Both the position numbers and the translations under genes were made by a program. A stretch of 64,000 bases of DNA from a virus. The stretch is taken from positions 17,376-81,375 of IMG/VR virus record IMGVR_UViG_3300032053_000034. One strand, written 5' to 3'. The notes beneath the pieces were generated by a model. That model did no database searches, was not told where the DNA came from, and saw nothing but the letters and a program-made list of their open reading frames with translations. Of the stretch, positions 44,518 to 52,186 are shown piece by piece; the stretch's first letter is position 1, and each line of letters opens with the position of its first letter.

Positions 44518-44931
44518 TCAAAGTATAAAGCATTTAACTCCGCACTCTTTCTTATTAACCTCATAGCCAAGTGGTATCACAACCACATTATCCATATTGT
44601 CTCTTGAAAGGTAGCCATGTTCCTCCATTTCATCCAAGATAACTTGAGTTATATTATTATAATCAAATTCTCTCTTGGTATCCCTGATAAGATACATCCC
44701 AAGAAGAATAGGTTTAGAAGTAGCATTGGCTACCTCTAAAAACCTTGACTTTTGTATTGAGAACACCAAAGAAATGTTTCTTTCAAAAGCTGTTACATTC
44801 TTACTTGAAATTATATGTGTACCAGTCCAACGTTTACTATTTTTCTTTGATGGAATATTTATTCCTTGAATGTAAAAATTTGGATTTGCCAAATCTACAC
44901 TGAACAGATCTATTAATCTTTGGATTACCAT
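44518..44931 (-). CDS. RusA-like Holliday junction resolvase
   Basis: IPSKKNS and RD..R.FDYNN..Q..LD.M...GY...DN motifs. Confidence 0.7.
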   Translation of the reverse strand: MVIQRLIDLFSVDLANPNFYIQGINIPSKKNSKRWTGTHIISSKNVTAFERNISLVFSIQKSRFLEVANATSKPILLGMYLIRDTKREFDYNNITQVILDEMEEHGYLSRDNMDNVVVIPLGYEVNKKECGVKCFIL

Positions 44932-45755
44932 TATAAATCAAATTCACTTAGTGGTACAAATCCCTCCCCTATACCAGTAACAACTTCTTTCCCTTGTTTA
45001 TTAAGAGGTAAAGACGGATTAATAGTTCTTAATACTCCTCTGGAATGAGATCCATAATTAACAAGTATTCCATTAATAAATCTTTGCTTAATCTCTTCAA
45101 TAATATTTTTTGGTATAGTATCAATTCTATGCCCATCTCTTTCCAGGCAAAATGTAGATTTCTGTCTGTATAACTGATCAATATTGTCTTTTGCTATTAT
45201 TGGAATGTTTTGGTTTTCTGCAATACTCCAGTAATATGAAAATTCACGTTGTGAAGGCTTAGTAATCCTAGTATAACTTGTCTTAGCCACATATACAATT
45301 CCTTCATTTGTGAAACTGCCAGTAGTAAGCATTTGATATATTATCCTTTTTGCTTCTGAAGCTCTTACAAACATATCAATATATGGATCACCACCTCTTG
45401 AAAAACATGTATATACATTTGCTCCAATAAAAGTAATTCCATATTGACTTAACCTTCCTGACATAGAATCTTCTCTTGAAGATTTCGCGTTTATCATTGC
45501 AAAAGGGATACTAGTCCCGGTGACCCTCATCCTTCCAATATTAGTAGTTTCAAGATCACTAATAAACATGTCTATATCACTTTCTGTTAAATTAATAAGG
45601 AGTTCTTCACTAGAATTAACCTCTTTTACAAACATGGCAATCATGTATAAATCTATAGCCGTAAGCCATACTTTCTTATAATCAACATGCTTTGATTCAT
45701 CAGGGTTAAAAACAATATTTTCACTACCCTTTAATATGTCTTGGAGGCTATACAT
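44931..45755 (-). CDS. Hypothetical protein coupled to the E1 gene
   Basis: 274 aa; overlaps the E1 stop by 8 nt; no recognisable motif. Confidence 0.6.
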   Translation of the reverse strand: MYSLQDILKGSENIVFNPDESKHVDYKKVWLTAIDLYMIAMFVKEVNSSEELLINLTESDIDMFISDLETTNIGRMRVTGTSIPFAMINAKSSREDSMSGRLSQYGITFIGANVYTCFSRGGDPYIDMFVRASEAKRIIYQMLTTGSFTNEGIVYVAKTSYTRITKPSQREFSYYWSIAENQNIPIIAKDNIDQLYRQKSTFCLERDGHRIDTIPKNIIEEIKQRFINGILVNYGSHSRGVLRTINPSLPLNKQGKEVVTGIGEGFVPLSEFDL

Positions 45756-46458
45756 AAGTTTTGGCTATGTCTAATTGTTGCAAATTAACATAACAATGAA
45801 ATGGTACATCTAAGATAGTCATGCCATTAATCTTGTTGGAGATTAAATTGTTAATTGCTGCCATTCCAAGACTAGTAATCAATGTTGCATTGTGAGTGGT
45901 TGCCTTGGCATTACATGGTAATTCCTCAGCATCATCATCAGAAAACAATGATTTAGCATACTCATTTGCTTGAGCACCATTAGTAATAAGAAAGAATTCA
46001 GAATGTTGAGGCGAACTTCTAAAGTCAATAAAGAACCTATGCTTAGGAGTTGTTCCAGCAGCTTTATGTTCCATTTGCTTTTTAACCCAAAGCTCATAAT
46101 ACATCTTTCTGTACTTCATGCTATCTACTGCAGAAACAAAGCAATCACCAATATCTGCTGTAGTTGTTGGTACAAAATACCCAGCATGAGCTTGAGTTGA
46201 AACATCACTACCAGAGAATAGTTTAATATTGCTTGCTAGTGCAGTTGCTTTGTTTGCTGATAAATTATGTACACCACAGAACTGAGCTGATATATTTTGG
46301 ACCGAGTATAGGTCATTGTCCCATAACTCAAGCAGGTGTCCAATCCTGCTTAAATATAGGGACATCCATGATCCTATCATACCACATCCAATTACTTGTA
46401 TTTTGAGTTTACTTACGGACCACTCAAAAGCACTAAACCTTTTGTTTGCAGTACTCAT
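45748..46458 (-). CDS. ThiF/E1-like ubiquitin-like-protein activating enzyme
   Basis: VIGCGMIGS nucleotide-binding loop, WDND..S..N...Q, KA.AL, AVDS...R, DFRS; candidate catalytic Cys in ELPCNAK (45913-45915); no CxxC pairs. Confidence 0.88.
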   Translation of the reverse strand: MSTANKRFSAFEWSVSKLKIQVIGCGMIGSWMSLYLSRIGHLLELWDNDLYSVQNISAQFCGVHNLSANKATALASNIKLFSGSDVSTQAHAGYFVPTTTADIGDCFVSAVDSMKYRKMYYELWVKKQMEHKAAGTTPKHRFFIDFRSSPQHSEFFLITNGAQANEYAKSLFSDDDAEELPCNAKATTHNATLITSLGMAAINNLISNKINGMTILDVPFHCYVNLQQLDIAKTYV

Positions 46459-46463
46459 GATTT

Positions 46464-47390
46464 TTAATGTTTACGTCTATTTTCTCTTCTTTTTTCTCTG
46501 GATTCAGTCCACATTTTTACAGCACTATTACTACTGATTTTCTCATCTTTCTCATCAAAGATGTCATCAACTGGAGTGCCATTTTGAGTTGTTTCCACAA
46601 CACCAAAATCCTCGTCAAACTTTTCAGATCCATTATTAAATCCAATTTCACTTTGAACATAAGGTGCATTCCTGAATTTTCTTGAATTGGTTTCAAGATT
46701 TTCCCAGTCAGCCTCTCTTGTTCCTCCACGAAAAGAATCTGCCCTCACAGATACCTGAAAGTCATTTCCTTCTCTTGATGTAGAATCTCTAAAAAAGCTA
46801 GGCTTTGCTTTTGCCAGCTCCTTGAATCTTTCCTCACAGCAAATCATTTTTACAATTTCGCAATCATAAACTTTAATGAATTTCTGTTGTGAAATTACGT
46901 TTGCAGGAAGATTAGGGATATTTTCAAACATTTCAACAACATTTCCCTCAATTACTGTAGAAACCTTAGCCTTATAACTACCAGCACAGTTTACAATCAA
47001 TGACAGAAACTGAGGAAAGAAATCTGCATTCACATGAAGTACGCGAGAATCCTCTCCACTAAAGAAAGTGTCCATATTGTGATGAGAATGCATTAAACCC
47101 ATTGTCCACCCATTTTCTGAGACCTCAGGGTTCTCCATATAGATGTCAGGCATGTTTGTGTTAAAATCAAACTTAGTGAATCCAGAAGTCCCCAAATCCA
47201 TCAAATAGAAGCCATGAACTAGAAATGATAAATCTTCTGGTTTTGATAAGTCGCCATTTACAGAATAAAAGATAACTCCAGACCATTCAAGGCTTTTATA
47301 CTCTCTATGCATGAAATCAATATCATTAAGGACATTTGGAGAAATTACTACTTTAGGTTTACCAAAACCTGTATATTTTACTACTTCCAT
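46464..47390 (-). CDS. JAB/MPN+ (JAMM) metalloprotease, DUB-like
   Basis: EWSG plus HSHHNMDTFFSGED matches E...HxH-x7-S-x2-D exactly (47049-47090); acidic disordered C-terminal tail. Confidence 0.9.
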   Translation of the reverse strand: MEVVKYTGFGKPKVVISPNVLNDIDFMHREYKSLEWSGVIFYSVNGDLSKPEDLSFLVHGFYLMDLGTSGFTKFDFNTNMPDIYMENPEVSENGWTMGLMHSHHNMDTFFSGEDSRVLHVNADFFPQFLSLIVNCAGSYKAKVSTVIEGNVVEMFENIPNLPANVISQQKFIKVYDCEIVKMICCEERFKELAKAKPSFFRDSTSREGNDFQVSVRADSFRGGTREADWENLETNSRKFRNAPYVQSEIGFNNGSEKFDEDFGVVETTQNGTPVDDIFDEKDEKISSNSAVKMWTESREKRRENRRKH

Positions 47391-48451
47391 TACCTATTTT
47401 TATTTAGAAGGTGATTTAAAATTAACTTATCCGAAGTTGGATGTACTCTTTTGTAATTTTCAGTGTATCTAACAACCCTATCAGGACTTCCAAATATGTC
47501 CCTTATTTTTTCATTATAGATTTCAATAATAACCTCTTTAATAATGTTTACAGTAGTTGGGGTTGGGAAATCAACCAAAACTTCAGTAGCTCTTTTTGCT
47601 GGGTCTGTACTTAATACTGGAGGATGAATTACTATGGGTCTTTCTTCTCTTTTGAATTTTATGAATTTACCTGGAATAGTTCCATGTCTTAAAGTAATAA
47701 GATATGCATCATTATTGTCTTCATACACAAACTCATCTGCATATCCTTTTTCAGTATTATAAATACCAAGATGATGCTTACCTAATTTCTTAGCAAATTC
47801 AAACAGATAATCCTCAGAAACACATGGAGTAATTGGATTGGCTCCTTCAGCATAAGAGAAGTCTGGGAAATAACCAAGATCCATTATGATTCTTCCAGCC
47901 TCTTCTGATGTCAGTCTTGGTCTTGTTTGTGCTGCACCTCCCCTTACTGCAGTGCCTTGGGTAATATGTATAAATGGACTTGCTCCTTCACACCCCATAA
48001 ATATATCAATCATGTTTGCCATCAAAAAGAAGTCATCATAACTGAATATTCGATTTCCAGACCTATTCTTCATTAATGAAAGCTCAGAGTTTCCTAGACA
48101 GAAATCACCAAAGCCTTTATTTTCTCTACCTGATTGCAGATGAGAATGTCTATAATTGTTTTGATATTGTAATGCAGAGTATGAACCCACATCACCTTGT
48201 ATCCTTGTTATTGTAATCCCAGAATCTGCTCTTGCAGTAAAATTAAGCATAACATATAAATCAGTTATGTTAATTCTTTTTGTGTGGTCACTATTTAATA
48301 CAACTGTTTTGGTTGGAAAATGAATTAAAACTGATCGGCCTTGTAAGCAAACAAATTCTTCACCAAAATAAGCATTAAACGCTGATACCATTTCTCTTAC
48401 TTTTGGATTTATTGCCATTTGTATAAGTGATTTAAGCCGGTGTATTTCCAT
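47390..48451 (-). CDS. Prokaryotic E2-like conjugating enzyme with C-terminal extension
   Basis: YRHSHL-x10-FCLG resembles the UBC HPN...CL / Prok-E2 HPH...CLG signature (Cys codon 48098-48100), preceded by beta-strands; coupled to JAB and E1. Confidence 0.65.
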   Translation of the reverse strand: MEIHRLKSLIQMAINPKVREMVSAFNAYFGEEFVCLQGRSVLIHFPTKTVVLNSDHTKRINITDLYVMLNFTARADSGITITRIQGDVGSYSALQYQNNYRHSHLQSGRENKGFGDFCLGNSELSLMKNRSGNRIFSYDDFFLMANMIDIFMGCEGASPFIHITQGTAVRGGAAQTRPRLTSEEAGRIIMDLGYFPDFSYAEGANPITPCVSEDYLFEFAKKLGKHHLGIYNTEKGYADEFVYEDNNDAYLITLRHGTIPGKFIKFKREERPIVIHPPVLSTDPAKRATEVLVDFPTPTTVNIIKEVIIEIYNEKIRDIFGSPDRVVRYTENYKRVHPTSDKLILNHLLNKNR

Positions 48452-49541
48452 TCATAATTTCCTCAAAGGTTCTAAATGGATTTACCGGTATTGCAGTGTT
48501 ATTTGGAACTTCATTAAATGGAACCATTTCAAGAGGATTTACAGGAGTTCTTCTTTCTCTATTAATCCTTTCAATTTCTTCTATTTCCCTTTCATCCTCA
48601 TCATCTGGATCCTCATAATCAACTTCCATTACAATGTCTTCATTACCATAGTCGTCAATATCATCAAGAGGAATTTCACCACCAGTAGAAGTGATGAAAA
48701 CACTTCCGGTTTGCTCCTGTAAAGGATTTGTTGATAGTAATGTTTCAGGATCTACAAATTCAAATTGGTCATTATTCCTTGGATTGCCTCTTCTTCTTCT
48801 TGGAGGAACTTCAGCTGTAATAGCACTTACAGTACCTCTTTCAGTGTTTGCTACATCTCCATTTTGAGTCATAATAACGCCAGATTGATTATCAATAATG
48901 ATTCCTTGTTCTCCCATAAAATGTGCTACATAATCACTAGGAGGTAATTCTTCATGTGGCCCAGGAACTGGTTGAGCTGGCTCAGAATTAATTAATCTTG
49001 CTGAACTTGATAATGCGCCCTCTATGTCTTGAAATGTCTGTAGAGGGGCAGGATTTGATATTCTTGGACTCCTTGTAATATTGTTTTGCCTAGTTGCCCT
49101 ATCAGATAATTCAGTATCAAGCTCTGCAAATGGTCTAAACCTATCTTGAATTGGAGTTTGACTTCCATTCAATAGTGGTTCACCATAGAATAATATTGGT
49201 GCTTCTTTGGCTAGAGTTCTAAATAAACCTTCACCTTTAACAACAGTGAATCCATCATTTTTTGCATCCTGAATCTCTTTAAACCTAAACTTCCAATAAT
49301 TTTCTCTTTCCTTTGTACTGGACTTAAGAAATTCTTTATGTTCTCTTAAGAGTCTTTTGATTCTTTTGTCATAAAGAATGGCTTCATTGCCAGACTTTAT
49401 CTCTCTCTTTTCAATGGCAATTACCCTTGACAAATCTTCTACAAGTTTTTTCCTAGTAGTTGTGTATGTCGGAGCTCCAATACCAAGATCTATGGCTAGA
49501 CATGCAAGCACATCATAGTCATAATTATTCAGGAGTACCAT
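48432..49541 (-). CDS. Protein with N-terminal Rho-N/HEH-like motif and long acidic disordered tail
   Basis: LNNYDYDVLACLAIDLGI...TRKKLVEDL; D/E/P-rich C-terminal half. Confidence 0.5.
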   Translation of the reverse strand: MVLLNNYDYDVLACLAIDLGIGAPTYTTTRKKLVEDLSRVIAIEKREIKSGNEAILYDKRIKRLLREHKEFLKSSTKERENYWKFRFKEIQDAKNDGFTVVKGEGLFRTLAKEAPILFYGEPLLNGSQTPIQDRFRPFAELDTELSDRATRQNNITRSPRISNPAPLQTFQDIEGALSSSARLINSEPAQPVPGPHEELPPSDYVAHFMGEQGIIIDNQSGVIMTQNGDVANTERGTVSAITAEVPPRRRRGNPRNNDQFEFVDPETLLSTNPLQEQTGSVFITSTGGEIPLDDIDDYGNEDIVMEVDYEDPDDEDEREIEEIERINRERRTPVNPLEMVPFNEVPNNTAIPVNPFRTFEEIMNGNTPA

Positions 49542-49977
49542 CCTGAGAACCCATTAGGTCTTCAAAGTTCTTTCCAAAATCTTTTGGAAGATTATTTTGT
49601 CTTCCCATCCCAAATTGCTCAGGATCTAACCCTAGGCATTCCATTGGAATAAGTATAATACCAACCTCTGCTAGTGACCTTTGTGCTTTAAAATAAGATA
49701 TTGCTTCAAATGCTCCTCTTGCTGCTAGTGCTTCACCAACAGATGCAGATAATTTTTGCATTTCTGTAAGATCAGTTTTTGAGGTTAACACAAAATCATC
49801 GCCAATATTGGCATTGGTATTACTTTCGTTTACTTCAGATTTAGGAACTCTCTTTTTTAAAGATTCCTCAACCTCTACTTCAAGTTGTTCCCTGGTCTTA
49901 TTACCAACAACAATTTCTTCGCAATCCATAACTATAGCCATGAGTGCGTTTCTTGAAATTAGACTTAAAATATTCAT
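49525..49977 (-). CDS. Protein with N-terminal Rho-N/HEH-like motif
   Basis: LSLISRNALMAIV...KTREQLEVEV; 150 aa. Confidence 0.45.
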   Translation of the reverse strand: MNILSLISRNALMAIVMDCEEIVVGNKTREQLEVEVEESLKKRVPKSEVNESNTNANIGDDFVLTSKTDLTEMQKLSASVGEALAARGAFEAISYFKAQRSLAEVGIILIPMECLGLDPEQFGMGRQNNLPKDFGKNFEDLMGSQDGTPE

Positions 49978-50001: not shown

Positions 50002-50040
50002 AAAAAAAAAACCTCTCCCTGATAACAAGAAGAGGGGTTC
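50002..50040 (-). terminator. Rho-independent terminator directly after the Ubl gene
   Basis: On the - strand: CCTCTTCTTG-TTAT-CAGGGAGAGG followed by T10. Confidence 0.85.
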
Positions 50041-50052
50041 TTTTAATTTAGA

Positions 50053-50370
50053 TTAAAGCAAAATTGCTCCTGACATTTGAGAAGGGCTCAAATATACAGT
50101 TAAGTCACCAAGAGGCAATACTTGCTCTGGAACCAATACTGAAAGAGGTGTTTTGGTTCTATTTGATTCTACAACAGTAATAGACATACCATCTTTAATT
50201 TGAGCAGCTCTCATTAAGTCTGCAGTAGTTCTGAACTCTCCTTCAAATACTGGAGGTGGCATACCTGGAGTTTGATTAGAAGAAACAATAGCAATTCTTC
50301 TTGATGTAGAGGGAATTACATTTGCAGAAGAACCTGTTTCATTATTTGAGTTTTCCGAATTTGGCAACAT
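50053..50370 (-). CDS. Ubiquitin-like (beta-grasp) protein with a masked C-terminal glycine
   Basis: 105 aa; strand-strand-helix-strand-strand-strand pattern (RIAIVSS / VFEGE / TTADLMRAA / MSITVVE / LSVL / LPLGDLTVYLSP) ending SQMSG-AILL; upstream of E2/JAB/E1. Confidence 0.65.
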   Translation of the reverse strand: MLPNSENSNNETGSSANVIPSTSRRIAIVSSNQTPGMPPPVFEGEFRTTADLMRAAQIKDGMSITVVESNRTKTPLSVLVPEQVLPLGDLTVYLSPSQMSGAILL

Positions 50371-50374
50371 GATT

Positions 50375-51337
50375 TTAAAATTTAAAATGTAAACTATTGA
50401 TTAAATTAATTGTTTTTGAGACTCCATTATCACGAATATAATCAGCAATGTCCTTCCATCCAAAAGAAGCATCTATGATTGCATAGGGTATACCTTCTTC
50501 ATTGTAATATCTTTCCATTGTCTTAATTCCTGCAGCATCATTGTCAAGAATACATACTACATGTTTGAACCTAGATCTCAACTCCCTTACTAAGCCTTCT
50601 GGTAAATTAGCAGACTCACTACATAGAGAAATAGCCCAAAAACCAAGTCTTCTCCAGACTAATACGTCTTTCATTGCCTTTGATATTACAAGTATATTTC
50701 CTGTTGGTGGTAATTGCTTATAACCCTGAATATCTGTAGCCCTAGTTGTTGAAAACCATTTGTAAGTAGAGAATGGCTGGTATATTTTATACTTGCCATT
50801 TATCCTATATCTAATTATAGGATTTGTGTCCCTATAAGACACCACTAACTCATTATTAAGCCAAACCCTTCTGGCTGGCTTAATATCATATTGTTCAAGA
50901 ATTTCTTTCGTGATATAATGTGACTCCCAATAACTGTAAAAACTTTGAGGAGTTTTATCAAAAAGCTCTACTTCAAGCTTTTTTTCAACTATTGGTTTTG
51001 GCTCTGGTTTTTGATAAACATCAGATAAACCAAAGTTGTTCCTTATATATTGTACTGCTTCATAGAAGGATAAACCTCCTCTTAATTCTGCCACTAATCC
51101 TACAGCACTGCCTGATTTCCCAGTACTAAAGCACTTCCACATGAGATGTGTTGCCTTTTGTTTAAACCTTAAACTTGGCGTTGAATCTCTTGTGAAAGGG
51201 CTTCTGTATGAGATTTTATCATTTGGCAAATAGCCTAGGACCTTAAAATAAATATCCATCTCAGATATTTGAGTGTATATGTCTACACAATCAATGGATG
51301 GCTTCCAATTATCTTGAGCAATTGCAAAATTATACAT
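50375..51337 (-). CDS. dnaG: DNA primase (DnaG-like, crAss type)
   Basis: Degenerate Zn-ribbon SPFTRDSTPS...WKCFSTG; TOPRIM ISKAMKDV...LDNDAAG; KDIAD. Confidence 0.85.
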   Translation of the reverse strand: MYNFAIAQDNWKPSIDCVDIYTQISEMDIYFKVLGYLPNDKISYRSPFTRDSTPSLRFKQKATHLMWKCFSTGKSGSAVGLVAELRGGLSFYEAVQYIRNNFGLSDVYQKPEPKPIVEKKLEVELFDKTPQSFYSYWESHYITKEILEQYDIKPARRVWLNNELVVSYRDTNPIIRYRINGKYKIYQPFSTYKWFSTTRATDIQGYKQLPPTGNILVISKAMKDVLVWRRLGFWAISLCSESANLPEGLVRELRSRFKHVVCILDNDAAGIKTMERYYNEEGIPYAIIDASFGWKDIADYIRDNGVSKTINLINSLHFKF

Positions 51338-51385: not shown

Positions 51386-52186
51386 CTAGAATGGCAAGTC
51401 ATCTGCTCCTGCTTGAGCAAAGATATTCACTTCTCCTGATGGAGCAACTGCAGTAGCTTCAGGAGTTGTAATTGGACTTGCTGCTACTGACATTGCAACT
51501 GGAGCATTAGATGGTGCTAATGTTGTTGCAGTATTTGAAGCAAATGTTGAAGGTCTGTCATCTTCTGCAAGTTCAACACCTGATTTCTTAGCAAGACCTT
51601 CTTTTTCTTCATTGTATTTCATAACAGTAGGAACATCTACACATTCTGCAAAGCCACTATAGTAGCTTGGAATTTGTGGAAATTTACCATCCTGATCAGC
51701 AATGAATTTCAATCTTAATTTTTTGTTTGCAGCGCCTTCTCTTGGAGCAAAACCTCTCTTGATATACTCAGCAAACTCAGCAGTTGTAGAACCAGGGAAA
51801 CCCTTGATATAAGTTTCAACTCTTTCTTGAGCAACAGCAGGAGCCATTGCTCTTAAGATATGAAAAATTCTGTTTATTTGGCCTTCAAATTTCTTAGGGT
51901 CAACATGGAAGGGCTCATACAAGCTAATAACCGTAATTGCACCTCTTGACTCATTACCAGCAATTGTTTTTTCAACCTGAAGAACAATTCTTGTTTGTTC
52001 TTTTGTAAAGCTTACTAGTGGGCCATCATTCTCCCCTTTAGTAAGTTCTTTTTTTCTTTCATTCCTTACTGAATCACCTATTGGTTGATAGTAAACATCC
52101 AGCACTGTTAATTCGTGAATACCAGTATTGATATATCTTACTGCTGGAGCGTCTTTTGCGTCTTTGAAATTATATGGATTAGCCAT
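51386..52186 (-). CDS. Single-stranded DNA-binding protein
   Basis: 266 aa; Ala/Pro/Thr linker and terminal DDLPF, like the bacterial SSB C-tail; lies in the replication block. Confidence 0.7.
   Translation of the reverse strand: MANPYNFKDAKDAPAVRYINTGIHELTVLDVYYQPIGDSVRNERKKELTKGENDGPLVSFTKEQTRIVLQVEKTIAGNESRGAITVISLYEPFHVDPKKFEGQINRIFHILRAMAPAVAQERVETYIKGFPGSTTAEFAEYIKRGFAPREGAANKKLRLKFIADQDGKFPQIPSYYSGFAECVDVPTVMKYNEEKEGLAKKSGVELAEDDRPSTFASNTATTLAPSNAPVAMSVAASPITTPEATAVAPSGEVNIFAQAGADDLPF

What the first reader, a model, noticed from the sequence alone, without database searches (positions are those of the whole stretch)
50053..50370. Ubl is made as a pro-form: ...SQMSG|AILL
Seen: the last Gly (codon 50068-50070) is followed by four hydrophobic residues and there is no GG. 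Established: E1 adenylation needs a free C-terminal Gly, and JAB proteases trim such extensions, as in Bil-type systems and pro-ThiS-like proteins. Inference: the neighbouring JAB matures the Ubl, giving a built-in control step. The Ubl also has a ~22-aa disordered Ser/Asn N-terminal leader.
Basis: partly seen in the sequence, partly recalled or inferred. Interest (0 to 1): 0.75.

Follow-up and report, generated by a model that had tools for sequence, protein, structure and literature searches.

The report
Capped ubiquitin-like protein of crAss-like phage
A small phage gene encodes a ubiquitin-like protein whose reactive C-terminal glycine is capped by four extra residues. In 78 related phage proteins that glycine is always present and always capped, so it most likely has to be trimmed before use, as ubiquitin precursors are.

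Summary
ORF 50053-50370 (-) encodes 105 aa ending ...SQMSG-AILL, with the Gly codon at 50068-50070.

The protein matches no Pfam, PHROG, PADLOC or NCBIfam family. Its model is a beta-grasp, and every top structural match is ubiquitin-like.

It belongs to an unannotated family found across crAss-like phages, including the N-termini of crAss001 gp79 and FpV4 gp53. The gene almost always sits in the order Ubl > E2-like > JAB > E1, just after the primase.

In 78 distinct homologues the terminal Gly is invariant (usually K-S-G). What follows it varies freely: 1 aa (often Lys), 2-4 aa, 21 aa, or 60-213 aa. None ends at the Gly. In phage cr106_1 an HNH endonuclease gene splits the fused gene just after this Gly.

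JAB has an intact JAMM site, E1 an invariant Cys182, and the E2-like protein an invariant His104/Cys118 on a UBC-like fold.

Not shown: cleavage by JAB, conjugation, and the targets. JAB pre-processing of a Gly+1 Ubl has been shown for Bil systems, so the mechanism is a new variant of a known kind. The Crassvirales-wide cassette seems undescribed.

The parts
50053..50370 (-). Ubl pro-form ORF, 105 aa, ending ...SPSQMSG-AILL-stop
   Evidence: homologues P0001 (95%) and P0002 (61%, ends SGAIRA)
50308..50370 (-). Ser/Asn-rich N-terminal leader (residues 1-21), low-confidence in the model; specific to this lineage
   Evidence: pLDDT below 50; absent from most homologues; partly conserved in P0002
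50068..50307 (-). Beta-grasp core plus flexible C-terminal arm up to Gly101 (residues 22-101): the predicted mature modifier
   Evidence: AF2 strand-strand-helix-strand-strand-strand; all top PDB matches are ubiquitin-like folds (Foldseek; VIA Z up to 7.9); BFVD best hits are FpV3, cr126, cr111 and cr106 homologues; BLASTP to FpV4 gp53 E=5e-5 over residues 21-100
50068..50070 (-). Gly101 codon, predicted activated C-terminus after processing
   Evidence: Gly at the domain end in 78 of 78 distinct homologues; S100 and G101 invariant in the 14-sequence alignment
50056..50067 (-). Four-residue cap A-I-L-L, predicted to be removed (mass loss 410.3 Da)
   Evidence: tail after the Gly varies from 1 to 213 aa and is never 0; the residue after Gly is variable: A26, K9, N7, L/I/V/M 5 each, others
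50002..50035 (-). Intrinsic terminator-like hairpin (10-bp stem) plus T10 just after the Ubl stop
   Evidence: sequence
49525..49977 (-). ORF150, lineage-specific; its C-terminal ...FGKNF... stretch weakly resembles the start of the extension fused to the Ubl in relatives
   Evidence: hhalign P=0.003 over 16 columns; no homologue in other loci
48432..49541 (-). ORF369, lineage-specific, acidic and Pro-rich; inserted between the Ubl and E2-like genes
   Evidence: no family; no homologue in other loci; no match to the extension profile
47390..48451 (-). E2-like protein (353 aa): UBC-like N-terminal domain with Y-x-H-S-H ... C118-x-G
   Evidence: H104, C118, G120, E155 and P159 invariant in 62 sequences; AF2 pLDDT about 90 for residues 1-170; VIA top 50 dominated by E2/UEV/RWD, Z 5-5.9; no Pfam or PDB sequence hit
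46464..47390 (-). JAB/JAMM metalloprotease (308 aa): E35, H101-x-H103-x7-S111-x2-D114
   Evidence: S111 and D114 invariant; E35, H101 and H103 at least 90% conserved in 66 sequences; Pfam Prok-JAB matched by 35 of 66 members, best E 6e-6; weak PDB profile hits to CSN5 and Rpn11-like
45748..46458 (-). E1/ThiF-type adenylating enzyme (236 aa) with invariant Cys182
   Evidence: Pfam ThiF 1.1e-9; PADLOC Cap2 E1-E2 models; PDB profile hits MccB, UBA5, Cap2, UBA3, MoeB, ThiF, BubCD; G24, G26, D49, N55, Q59, K70, D112, R117, D145, R147 and C182 in 78 of 78 sequences
44931..45755 (-). ORF274, overlaps the E1 stop; lineage-specific, role unknown
   Evidence: no family; no homologue in other loci
50375..51337 (-). 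DnaG-type primase directly upstream: the conserved anchor of the cassette
   Evidence: the same position in FpV4, cr111_1, crAss001 and others

Best explanation
The 105-aa ORF is the modifier of a phage-encoded ubiquitin-like conjugation cassette (Ubl, E2-like, JAB, E1) that is conserved in the replication module of crAss-like phages. It is translated as an inactive precursor. Gly101 sits at the end of a flexible arm after the last beta-strand and is blocked by A-I-L-L. The cassette's JAMM protease most likely cuts the Gly101-Ala102 bond. The short ThiF-type E1 then adenylates Gly101 and probably takes it onto Cys182. It would pass next to Cys118 of the E2-like protein and on to a lysine of an unknown phage or host target. 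Shown here: the fold class, the invariance of the Gly, the obligatory and freely variable cap, the conserved gene linkage, and intact catalytic residues in all three enzymes. Inferred: the cleavage itself, the identity of the protease, thioester transfer, conjugation and the targets.
For: Fold: AF2 gives strand-strand-helix-strand-strand-strand with a floppy tail at residues 99-105. All top Foldseek and VIA matches are ubiquitin-like beta-grasps. The best BFVD hits are the FpV3, cr126_1, cr111_1 and cr106_1 homologues, followed by giant-virus ubiquitins.

Family: BLASTP to FpV4 gp53 gives E=5e-5 and ends at the S-G. More than 6,900 longer proteins match the domain profile.

Gly and cap: 78 of 78 distinct homologues have Gly at the domain end (KSG 53, KAG 11, RSG 4). 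Tails are 1 aa in 13 of the 75 tallied sequences; the others are 2, 3, 3, 21 or 60-213 aa, the window lineage has 4 (AILL) and L049 has 2. None is 0. Short tails are not recoding artefacts: 14 of 18 stops are TAA and further in-frame stops follow.

Natural split: in cr106_1 an HNH gene lies right after K-S-G-K-F-stop, and the extension is a separate gene.

Linkage: in 80 loci fetched through E1 alone, the order Ubl>E2>JAB>E1 holds in 58, plus variants.

Enzymes: JAMM site intact. E1 motifs and Cys182 are invariant. The E2-like protein has invariant His104 and Cys118 on a UBC-like fold.

Precedent: the Bil JAB deubiquitinase removes the residue after BilA Gly97.
Against: There is no experimental or structural evidence here for cleavage or conjugation. 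The Ubl model is only moderate (pLDDT 66.5 from a 3-sequence alignment) and the fold scores are middling (Foldseek best E 7.6e-3, VIA Z below 8). Profile-profile homology of the window lineage to the gut-phage domain is weak on its own (hhalign probability 6%, P=0.006). The UBC-like assignment of the E2-like protein rests on Z 5-6 with no significant Foldseek hit. The window has Met at position -2 where 58 of the 75 tallied homologues have Lys or Arg. In this phage a terminator and two unrelated ORFs separate the Ubl gene from the enzyme genes. The E1 is ThiF-sized with no separate Cys domain, so a non-canonical chemistry cannot be excluded.
Confidence: 0.6

Rival explanations
1. The Ubl is a precursor that must be trimmed, but the cassette's JAB is not the maturase. 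A host peptidase or another phage protease removes the cap, and JAB acts only as a deconjugase that recycles or edits conjugates.
For: Caps of a single residue (13 of the 75 tallied sequences) could be removed by a carboxypeptidase. JAMM enzymes are primarily isopeptidases; the nearest PDB profile hits are CSN5 and Rpn11-like. Nothing here links JAB to the peptide bond specifically.
Against: JAB is the only protease conserved with the Ubl. The Bil JAB does both jobs.
Confidence: 0.12
2. The beta-grasp is a non-conjugated adaptor domain, like DIX, UBX or N-terminal UBL domains. It binds the E2-like, JAB or E1 proteins or replication proteins. The conserved K-S-G would then be a structural or docking motif, and the variable C-terminus simply a domain boundary.
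For: Most family members are fusions to a C-terminal extension. The best PDB fold matches include non-conjugated DIX, UBX and UBL domains. No conjugate has been observed.
Against: An invariant Gly exactly at the boundary, on a low-confidence arm, matches the signature of activated Ubls. Stand-alone forms stop 1-4 residues after it, and an HNH insertion splits the gene there without loss of either half. The gene is strictly linked to an E1 with intact adenylation motifs and Cys182, and to an E2-like protein with an invariant Cys.
Confidence: 0.15
3. The protein is a ThiS/MoaD-type sulfur carrier, or an MccB/PaaA-type peptide substrate. The E1 would adenylate the C-terminus for thiocarboxylate formation or peptide modification, and JAB would trim a pro-form as QbsD does for QbsE (QbsD/QbsE from my own knowledge).
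For: The E1 is ThiF-sized (236 aa). Its best PDB profile hits are MccB (1.4e-9), UBA5 and PaaA, and its best NCBIfam hit is ThiF. ThiS and MoaD appear among the fold matches.
Against: A conserved UBC-like protein with an invariant Cys lies between the Ubl and JAB in nearly all loci, and sulfur-carrier systems have no such protein. Searches show no rhodanese, cysteine desulfurase, thiazole or molybdopterin genes nearby. The C-terminus is S-G rather than G-G.
Confidence: 0.08
4. The ORF is a chance or truncated reading frame: a pseudogene remnant of a fused gp79-like gene.
For: No family hit in any HMM library. Only two near-length homologues.
Against: The reading frame, the stop position and the S-G-A-I motif are kept at 61% identity in P0002. 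A terminator follows the stop. Eighteen other phages have stand-alone forms. The fold is confidently non-random.
Confidence: 0.02

Closest known systems
Bil (BilABCD) bacterial ubiquitin-like conjugation system
   Same: Four parts: Ubl, E2, JAB/JAMM deubiquitinase and E1. The Ubl's reactive Gly is followed by extra residue(s) and must be exposed by the JAB enzyme (BilA Gly97-Ala98). The predicted flow is E1 to E2 to lysine.
   Different: This cassette is encoded by a lytic-type crAss-like phage inside its replication module, not by a bacterial defence island. No sequence-level membership was found: the Ubl and the E2-like protein match no family. The E1 is ThiF-sized, with no room for a separate mobile Cys domain. 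The cap is often a whole 60-213 aa protein.
Type II CBASS Cap2 (E2-E1 fusion) and Cap3 (JAB)
   Same: The E1 here scores best against PADLOC Cap2 E1-E2 models and matches PDB Cap2 chains. Both have a JAB partner and a minimal E1.
   Different: E2 and E1 are separate genes here. A dedicated beta-grasp modifier replaces the CD-NTase C-terminus. None of the cassette ORFs scanned matched a CD-NTase or effector family.
Eukaryotic ubiquitin precursors (Ub-ribosomal protein fusions, polyubiquitin with a terminal extra residue), pro-NEDD8 and pro-SUMO
   Same: The modifier is never born with a free Gly. The cap is either one or a few residues or a whole unrelated protein released by cleavage. The residue after Gly is variable, and Pro is absent in the 75 tallied sequences.
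   Different: The motif is K-S-G rather than R-G-G. The proposed processing enzyme is a JAMM metalloprotease rather than a Cys deubiquitinase. The extension carries a helix-extension-helix-like N-terminus and an acidic C-terminal ...SEI-x-x-MF motif. The eukaryotic comparison is from my own knowledge.
JAMM-processed sulfur carriers (QbsE/QbsD, CysO/Mec+)
   Different: Those systems have no E2, end in G-G and sit in biosynthetic operons. Here a conserved UBC-like Cys protein is present and no sulfur-transfer genes were seen.
PRTRC cassette (ParB-related, ThiF-related) of mobile elements
   Same: Weak NCBIfam hits of the E1 to PRTRC_ThiF (3e-6) and of JAB to PRTRC_A (0.05). It too is a mobile-element E1 plus JAB set.
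   Different: The scores are far below the curated cut-offs. There is no ParB partner and the gene order differs. Not a member.

Membership tests
Conjugated ubiquitin-like modifiers (beta-grasp Ubl) | Beta-grasp fold | tested here: met
   AF2 model with strand-strand-helix-strand-strand-strand (pLDDT 66.5). All 50 top Foldseek hits and all 50 top VIA hits are ubiquitin-like folds (best E 7.6e-3, Z 7.9). BFVD hits are homologues, then viral ubiquitins. The scores are moderate.
Conjugated ubiquitin-like modifiers (beta-grasp Ubl) | Conserved Gly at or near the C-terminus on a flexible arm after the last strand | tested here: met
   Gly in 78 of 78 homologues; pLDDT below 50 for residues 99-105.
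Conjugated ubiquitin-like modifiers (beta-grasp Ubl) | Gene linkage with E1, E2 and a deubiquitinase-type protease | tested here: met
   Order Ubl>E2-like>JAB>E1 in 58 of 80 loci fetched by E1 alone, plus variants.
Conjugated ubiquitin-like modifiers (beta-grasp Ubl) | Covalent attachment to targets through the C-terminal Gly | not testable with these tools
   Needs biochemistry or mass spectrometry.
Bil (BilABCD) | Sequence membership of the four proteins in the Bil families | tested here: inconclusive
   No Bil model matched in PADLOC 2.0 or NCBIfam. No chain named Bil appears in the PDB profile lists. The libraries may lack Bil models.
Bil (BilABCD) | E1 with a distinct mobile Cys domain | tested here: not met
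   The E1 is 236 aa and aligns end to end with ThiF-sized homologues. Its single invariant Cys182 lies in the core. No insertion domain is present.
Bil (BilABCD) | JAB pre-processing of a capped Ubl | not testable with these tools
   A cap is present and the JAMM site is intact.
CBASS Cap2/Cap3 | E2 and E1 fused in one protein acting on a CD-NTase | tested here: not met
   Separate E2-like (47390-48451) and E1 (45748-46458) genes. None of the cassette ORFs scanned matched a CD-NTase family.
E2/UBC superfamily | UBC fold with a catalytic Cys preceded by a conserved His-containing loop | tested here: met
   AF2 pLDDT about 90 for residues 1-170. VIA top hits are E2, UEV and RWD domains at Z 5-5.9. 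H104 and C118 are invariant in 62 sequences. Support is weak to moderate: there is no significant Foldseek or sequence hit.
JAB/JAMM metalloproteases (Pfam Prok-JAB) | E ... H-x-H-x7-S-x2-D zinc site | tested here: met
   E35, H101, H103, S111 and D114. 35 of 66 family members match PF14464, best E 6e-6. The window protein itself scores 16.7 bits, below the 25-bit cut-off.
E1/ThiF superfamily | Gly-rich ATP loop, Asp/Arg/Lys adenylation residues, catalytic Cys | tested here: met
   Pfam ThiF 38.2 bits, above the 28.1 cut-off. G24, G26, D49, N55, Q59, K70, D112, R117, D145, R147 and C182 are invariant in 78 sequences.
ThiS/MoaD sulfur carriers | G-G C-terminus, sulfur-transfer or cofactor genes nearby, no E2 | tested here: not met
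   The C-terminus is S-G. An E2-like gene is conserved. Neighbours are replication and recombination genes.

The most novel reading that the evidence does not exclude
Crassvirales, including the gut phage crAss001 (gp79 to gp76), carry a self-contained ubiquitin-like conjugation pathway in their replication module. Its modifier is always born capped. In most members the cap is a whole helix-extension-helix/acidic-tail protein. A single JAB cut would then release two active products at once, as with eukaryotic ubiquitin-ribosomal fusions, and would license E1/E2-driven tagging of host or phage replication or defence proteins. That would make it a phage-encoded, offence-side counterpart of the bacterial Bil and CBASS conjugation systems.
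Probability: 0.35. Interest if true: 0.85.

Novelty: new variant of a known kind. Interest (0 to 1): 0.62.

Why it matters
Ubiquitin-like conjugation in prokaryotes is so far known mainly as bacterial anti-phage defence (Bil, CBASS Cap2/Cap3). Here the full set sits in the phage, next to the primase, and is conserved across crAss-like phages. That group includes cultured crAss001, DAC15 and FpV4, where it can be tested by genetics.

The finding gives names and testable residues to four hypothetical-protein families. Two of them, the Ubl and the E2-like protein, match no Pfam model. The obligatory cap predicts an ordered maturation step. It also predicts an easy assay: a 410 Da mass shift here, and cleavage of gp79 into pieces of about 10 and 15 kDa in crAss001. 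In K-S-G-type phages it predicts a tryptic Ser-Gly remnant (+144.05 Da) on modified lysines, which could reveal the targets in existing or new proteomics data.

The literature searches in the held library found no paper describing this. The library is incomplete, so prior description elsewhere cannot be excluded.

Tried and rejected

Searches with the 105-aa protein alone found almost nothing:
- Near-length search: 2 homologues.
- phmmer over 1.8 billion representatives: P0001 plus a spurious repeat-protein hit, P0003.
- IMG/VR pattern scans: nothing.
- blastn and tblastn against phages: nothing.
- Pfam, PHROGs, PADLOC and NCBIfam: nothing.
- Pfam on 55 Ubl members and on 62 E2-like members: no family.
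- Alignment A4 was too diverse for the search for related loci.

E2-like protein:
- PDB sequence profiles gave no match.
- Foldseek was not significant.
- Only VIA showed the UBC-like fold.
- The ESM Atlas gave only a weak Prok-E2_D lead.

Ideas considered and rejected:
- Cleavage after Ala102 (an S-G-[GA] motif). Rejected because the residue after Gly is freely variable.
- Short tails as artefacts of stop-codon recoding. Rejected because 14 of 18 stops are TAA and other in-frame stops follow.
- ORF150 and ORF369 as the detached extension. There is only a 16-column match for ORF150 (P=0.003), none for ORF369, and neither has homologues in other loci. This is left as a weak lead.

Full report
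**Observation.** The minus-strand ORF 50053-50370 encodes 105 aa. From the sequence, Gly101 is gga at 50070-50068. It is followed by gca-att-ttg-ctt (A-I-L-L) and taa at 50055-50053. A 10-bp hairpin with a T10 run follows the stop. The window is a crAss-like phage genome: it has ORFs of 4,241 and 1,626 aa and a minus-strand replication block. That block holds helicase, DnaB-like, RecT-like and SSB-like genes and the primase, then this ORF.

**What the protein is.**
- It matches nothing in Pfam, PHROGs, PADLOC or NCBIfam.
- Only two near-length homologues exist among 5.8 billion clusters: P0001 (95%) and P0002 (61%, ending S-G-A-I-R-A).
- An exhaustive phmmer search added only a spurious repeat-protein match.
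- The AlphaFold model has mean pLDDT 66.5. It shows strand-strand-helix-strand-strand-strand, with residues 1-21 and 99-105 at low confidence.
- Every leading PDB match is a ubiquitin-like beta-grasp, including DIX, UBX, FAT10, ISG15, SUMO, MoaD, ThiS and bacterial multi-ubiquitin. Foldseek's best E is 7.6e-3 and the top VIA Z is 7.9.
- The scores are moderate, but the list is uniform.

**The wider family.** tblastn with the neighbouring E1 found homologues in Flavobacterium phage FpV4 and in gut Crassvirales.
- In these phages the gene after the primase encodes a longer protein. Examples are FpV4 gp53 (289 aa), cr111_1 gp060 (211 aa) and crAss001 gp79 (225 aa).
- The N-terminal 83-95 residues of these proteins align with the window protein and end in K-S-G.
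- BLASTP of the window protein against FpV4 gp53 gives E=5e-5 over residues 21-100, stopping at the S-G.
- hhalign against the gut-phage domains is weak (P=0.006).
- The BFVD structural search independently ranks the FpV3, cr126_1, cr111_1 and cr106_1 proteins first, best E 2.1e-4.
- More than 6,900 longer proteins in the public collection match the domain profile.

I fetched 80 IMG/VR loci using only an E1 alignment and searched their ORFs with profiles of each component.
- The order Ubl > E2-like > JAB > E1 holds in 58 loci. The remainder are truncated contigs or minor variants.
- After profile iteration there were 78 distinct Ubl-domain proteins, and all have Gly at the domain end: K-S-G 53, K-A-G 11, R-S-G 4, plus singletons. 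The window has M-S-G.
- The tail after Gly is 1 aa in 13 of the 75 sequences tallied by the script. Nine of the 75 sequences have Lys right after the Gly.
- The other tallied tails are 2, 3, 3, 21 or 60-213 aa. The window lineage has 4 (AILL) and L049 has 2. None of the 78 has a zero tail.
- The residue after Gly is unconstrained: A 26, K 9, N 7, and L, I, V, M 5 each, with no Pro.
- The short tails are real. 14 of 18 end in TAA and further in-frame stops follow, so stop-codon recoding does not explain them.
- In cr106_1 an HNH endonuclease gene lies directly after K-S-G-K-F-stop, and the C-terminal extension is a separate gene. This natural split at the boundary shows that the two halves work as separate polypeptides.

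**The enzymes.**
- JAB (46464-47390) has E35 and H101-x-H103-x7-S111-x2-D114. All are conserved in 66 homologues, and 35 of those match Pfam Prok-JAB.
- E1 (45748-46458) passes the Pfam ThiF threshold. It matches E1 adenylation domains in the PDB. Its ATP-loop and adenylation residues and Cys182 are kept in 78 of 78 sequences.
- ORF353 (47390-48451) has no sequence match anywhere. In 62 homologues H104, C118, G120, E155 and P159 are invariant.
- Its N-terminal 170 residues fold at pLDDT about 90. The VIA top 50 is dominated by E2, UEV and RWD domains at Z 5-5.9. Foldseek alone was not significant. I read it as a divergent E2.

**Mechanism.** The most economical reading is a pro-Ubl. JAB removes A-I-L-L and E1 activates Gly101. 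The Ubl then passes via Cys182 and Cys118 to a target lysine. The precedent is direct: in Bil, BilA Gly97 is followed by Ala98 and the JAB deubiquitinase pre-processes it (bioRxiv 10.1101/2023.09.26.559546).
- Shown here: fold class, Gly invariance, an obligatory variable cap, gene linkage and intact active sites.
- Inferred: cleavage, the protease's identity, thioester transfer, conjugation and the targets.
- That no homologue ends at Gly suggests the cap is under selection.

**Peculiarities of this phage.**
- ORF150 and ORF369 are inserted between the Ubl and the E2-like gene and have no homologues in the other loci.
- ORF150's C-terminal ...FGKNF... stretch weakly resembles the start of the extension in fused relatives.
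- A terminator separates the Ubl gene from the enzyme genes.
- The Ser/Asn leader is specific to this lineage.

**Comparison and novelty.** The system works like Bil, and partly like Cap2/Cap3, but it is not a sequence member of either. The E1 lacks a separate Cys domain, E2 and E1 are unfused, and the cassette is phage-borne. Capping by a whole protein parallels eukaryotic ubiquitin-ribosomal fusions (my own knowledge). Searches of the held literature found no description of a Ubl system in crAss-like phages. First-reader notes on this same window list the cassette, the terminator, the E2-like protein and the HEH-like ORFs. They agree with what I found and were not used as evidence.

**Limits.** The Ubl model rests on a 3-sequence alignment.

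**Verdict.** The pro-form reading is well supported by comparison. JAB as the maturase is plausible but untested.

Noticed in passing
L011 (crAss cr106_1, NC_055871) 1501-2704: An HNH endonuclease gene is inserted directly after the Ubl domain (K-S-G-K-F-stop). The C-terminal extension is a separate 130-aa gene. This is a natural split of the gp79-type gene at the predicted cleavage site.
   Followed up: yes
L032, L033, L057, L059, L084 (IMG/VR loci), JAB gene: The JAB homologue appears as two pieces about 1 kb apart (for example L033 4542-4922 and 6079-6909). This suggests an inserted mobile gene, intron or intein within the protease gene.
   Followed up: no
L057 2512-2958 and 3030-3503: Two tandem Ubl-domain paralogues, both ending N-K-A-G followed by extensions of about 70 aa, upstream of one E2-like/JAB/E1 set.
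   Followed up: no
window 49525-49977 and 48432-49541: ORF150 and ORF369 lie between the Ubl and E2-like genes only in this phage lineage. The end of ORF150 (...FGKNF...) resembles the start of the extension fused to the Ubl in relatives (hhalign P=0.003 over 16 columns).
   Followed up: partly
L003-L014: C-terminal extensions of gp79-type proteins: The extensions share an N-terminal helix-extension-helix-like segment (...GLQ...FGKNFT...DL..L) and a conserved acidic C-terminal motif (S-x-S-E-I-[DN]-x-M-F). The latter looks like a short docking peptide.
   Followed up: no
L010 (crAss cr126_1) 1786-2424: The extension of this 308-aa Ubl fusion carries an extra insert that BFVD/UniProt names as a bL12 C-terminal-domain-like region.
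   Followed up: no
window 51386-52186: The 266-aa ORF between RecT-like and primase ends in ...DDLPF, like the acidic C-terminal tip of bacterial SSB. FpV4 gp49 (downstream of its E1) ends in ...EDLPF.
   Followed up: no
L081 6941-8650: One locus has the order E1 then JAB (reversed), and no Ubl or E2-like gene was detected in the stretch held.
   Followed up: no
P0003 (1,654 aa): The only distant phmmer hit of the Ubl is a repetitive, SprB-like cell-surface repeat protein matched in six stretches (E 1.6e-4). I judged it a compositional or repeat artefact.
   Followed up: partly
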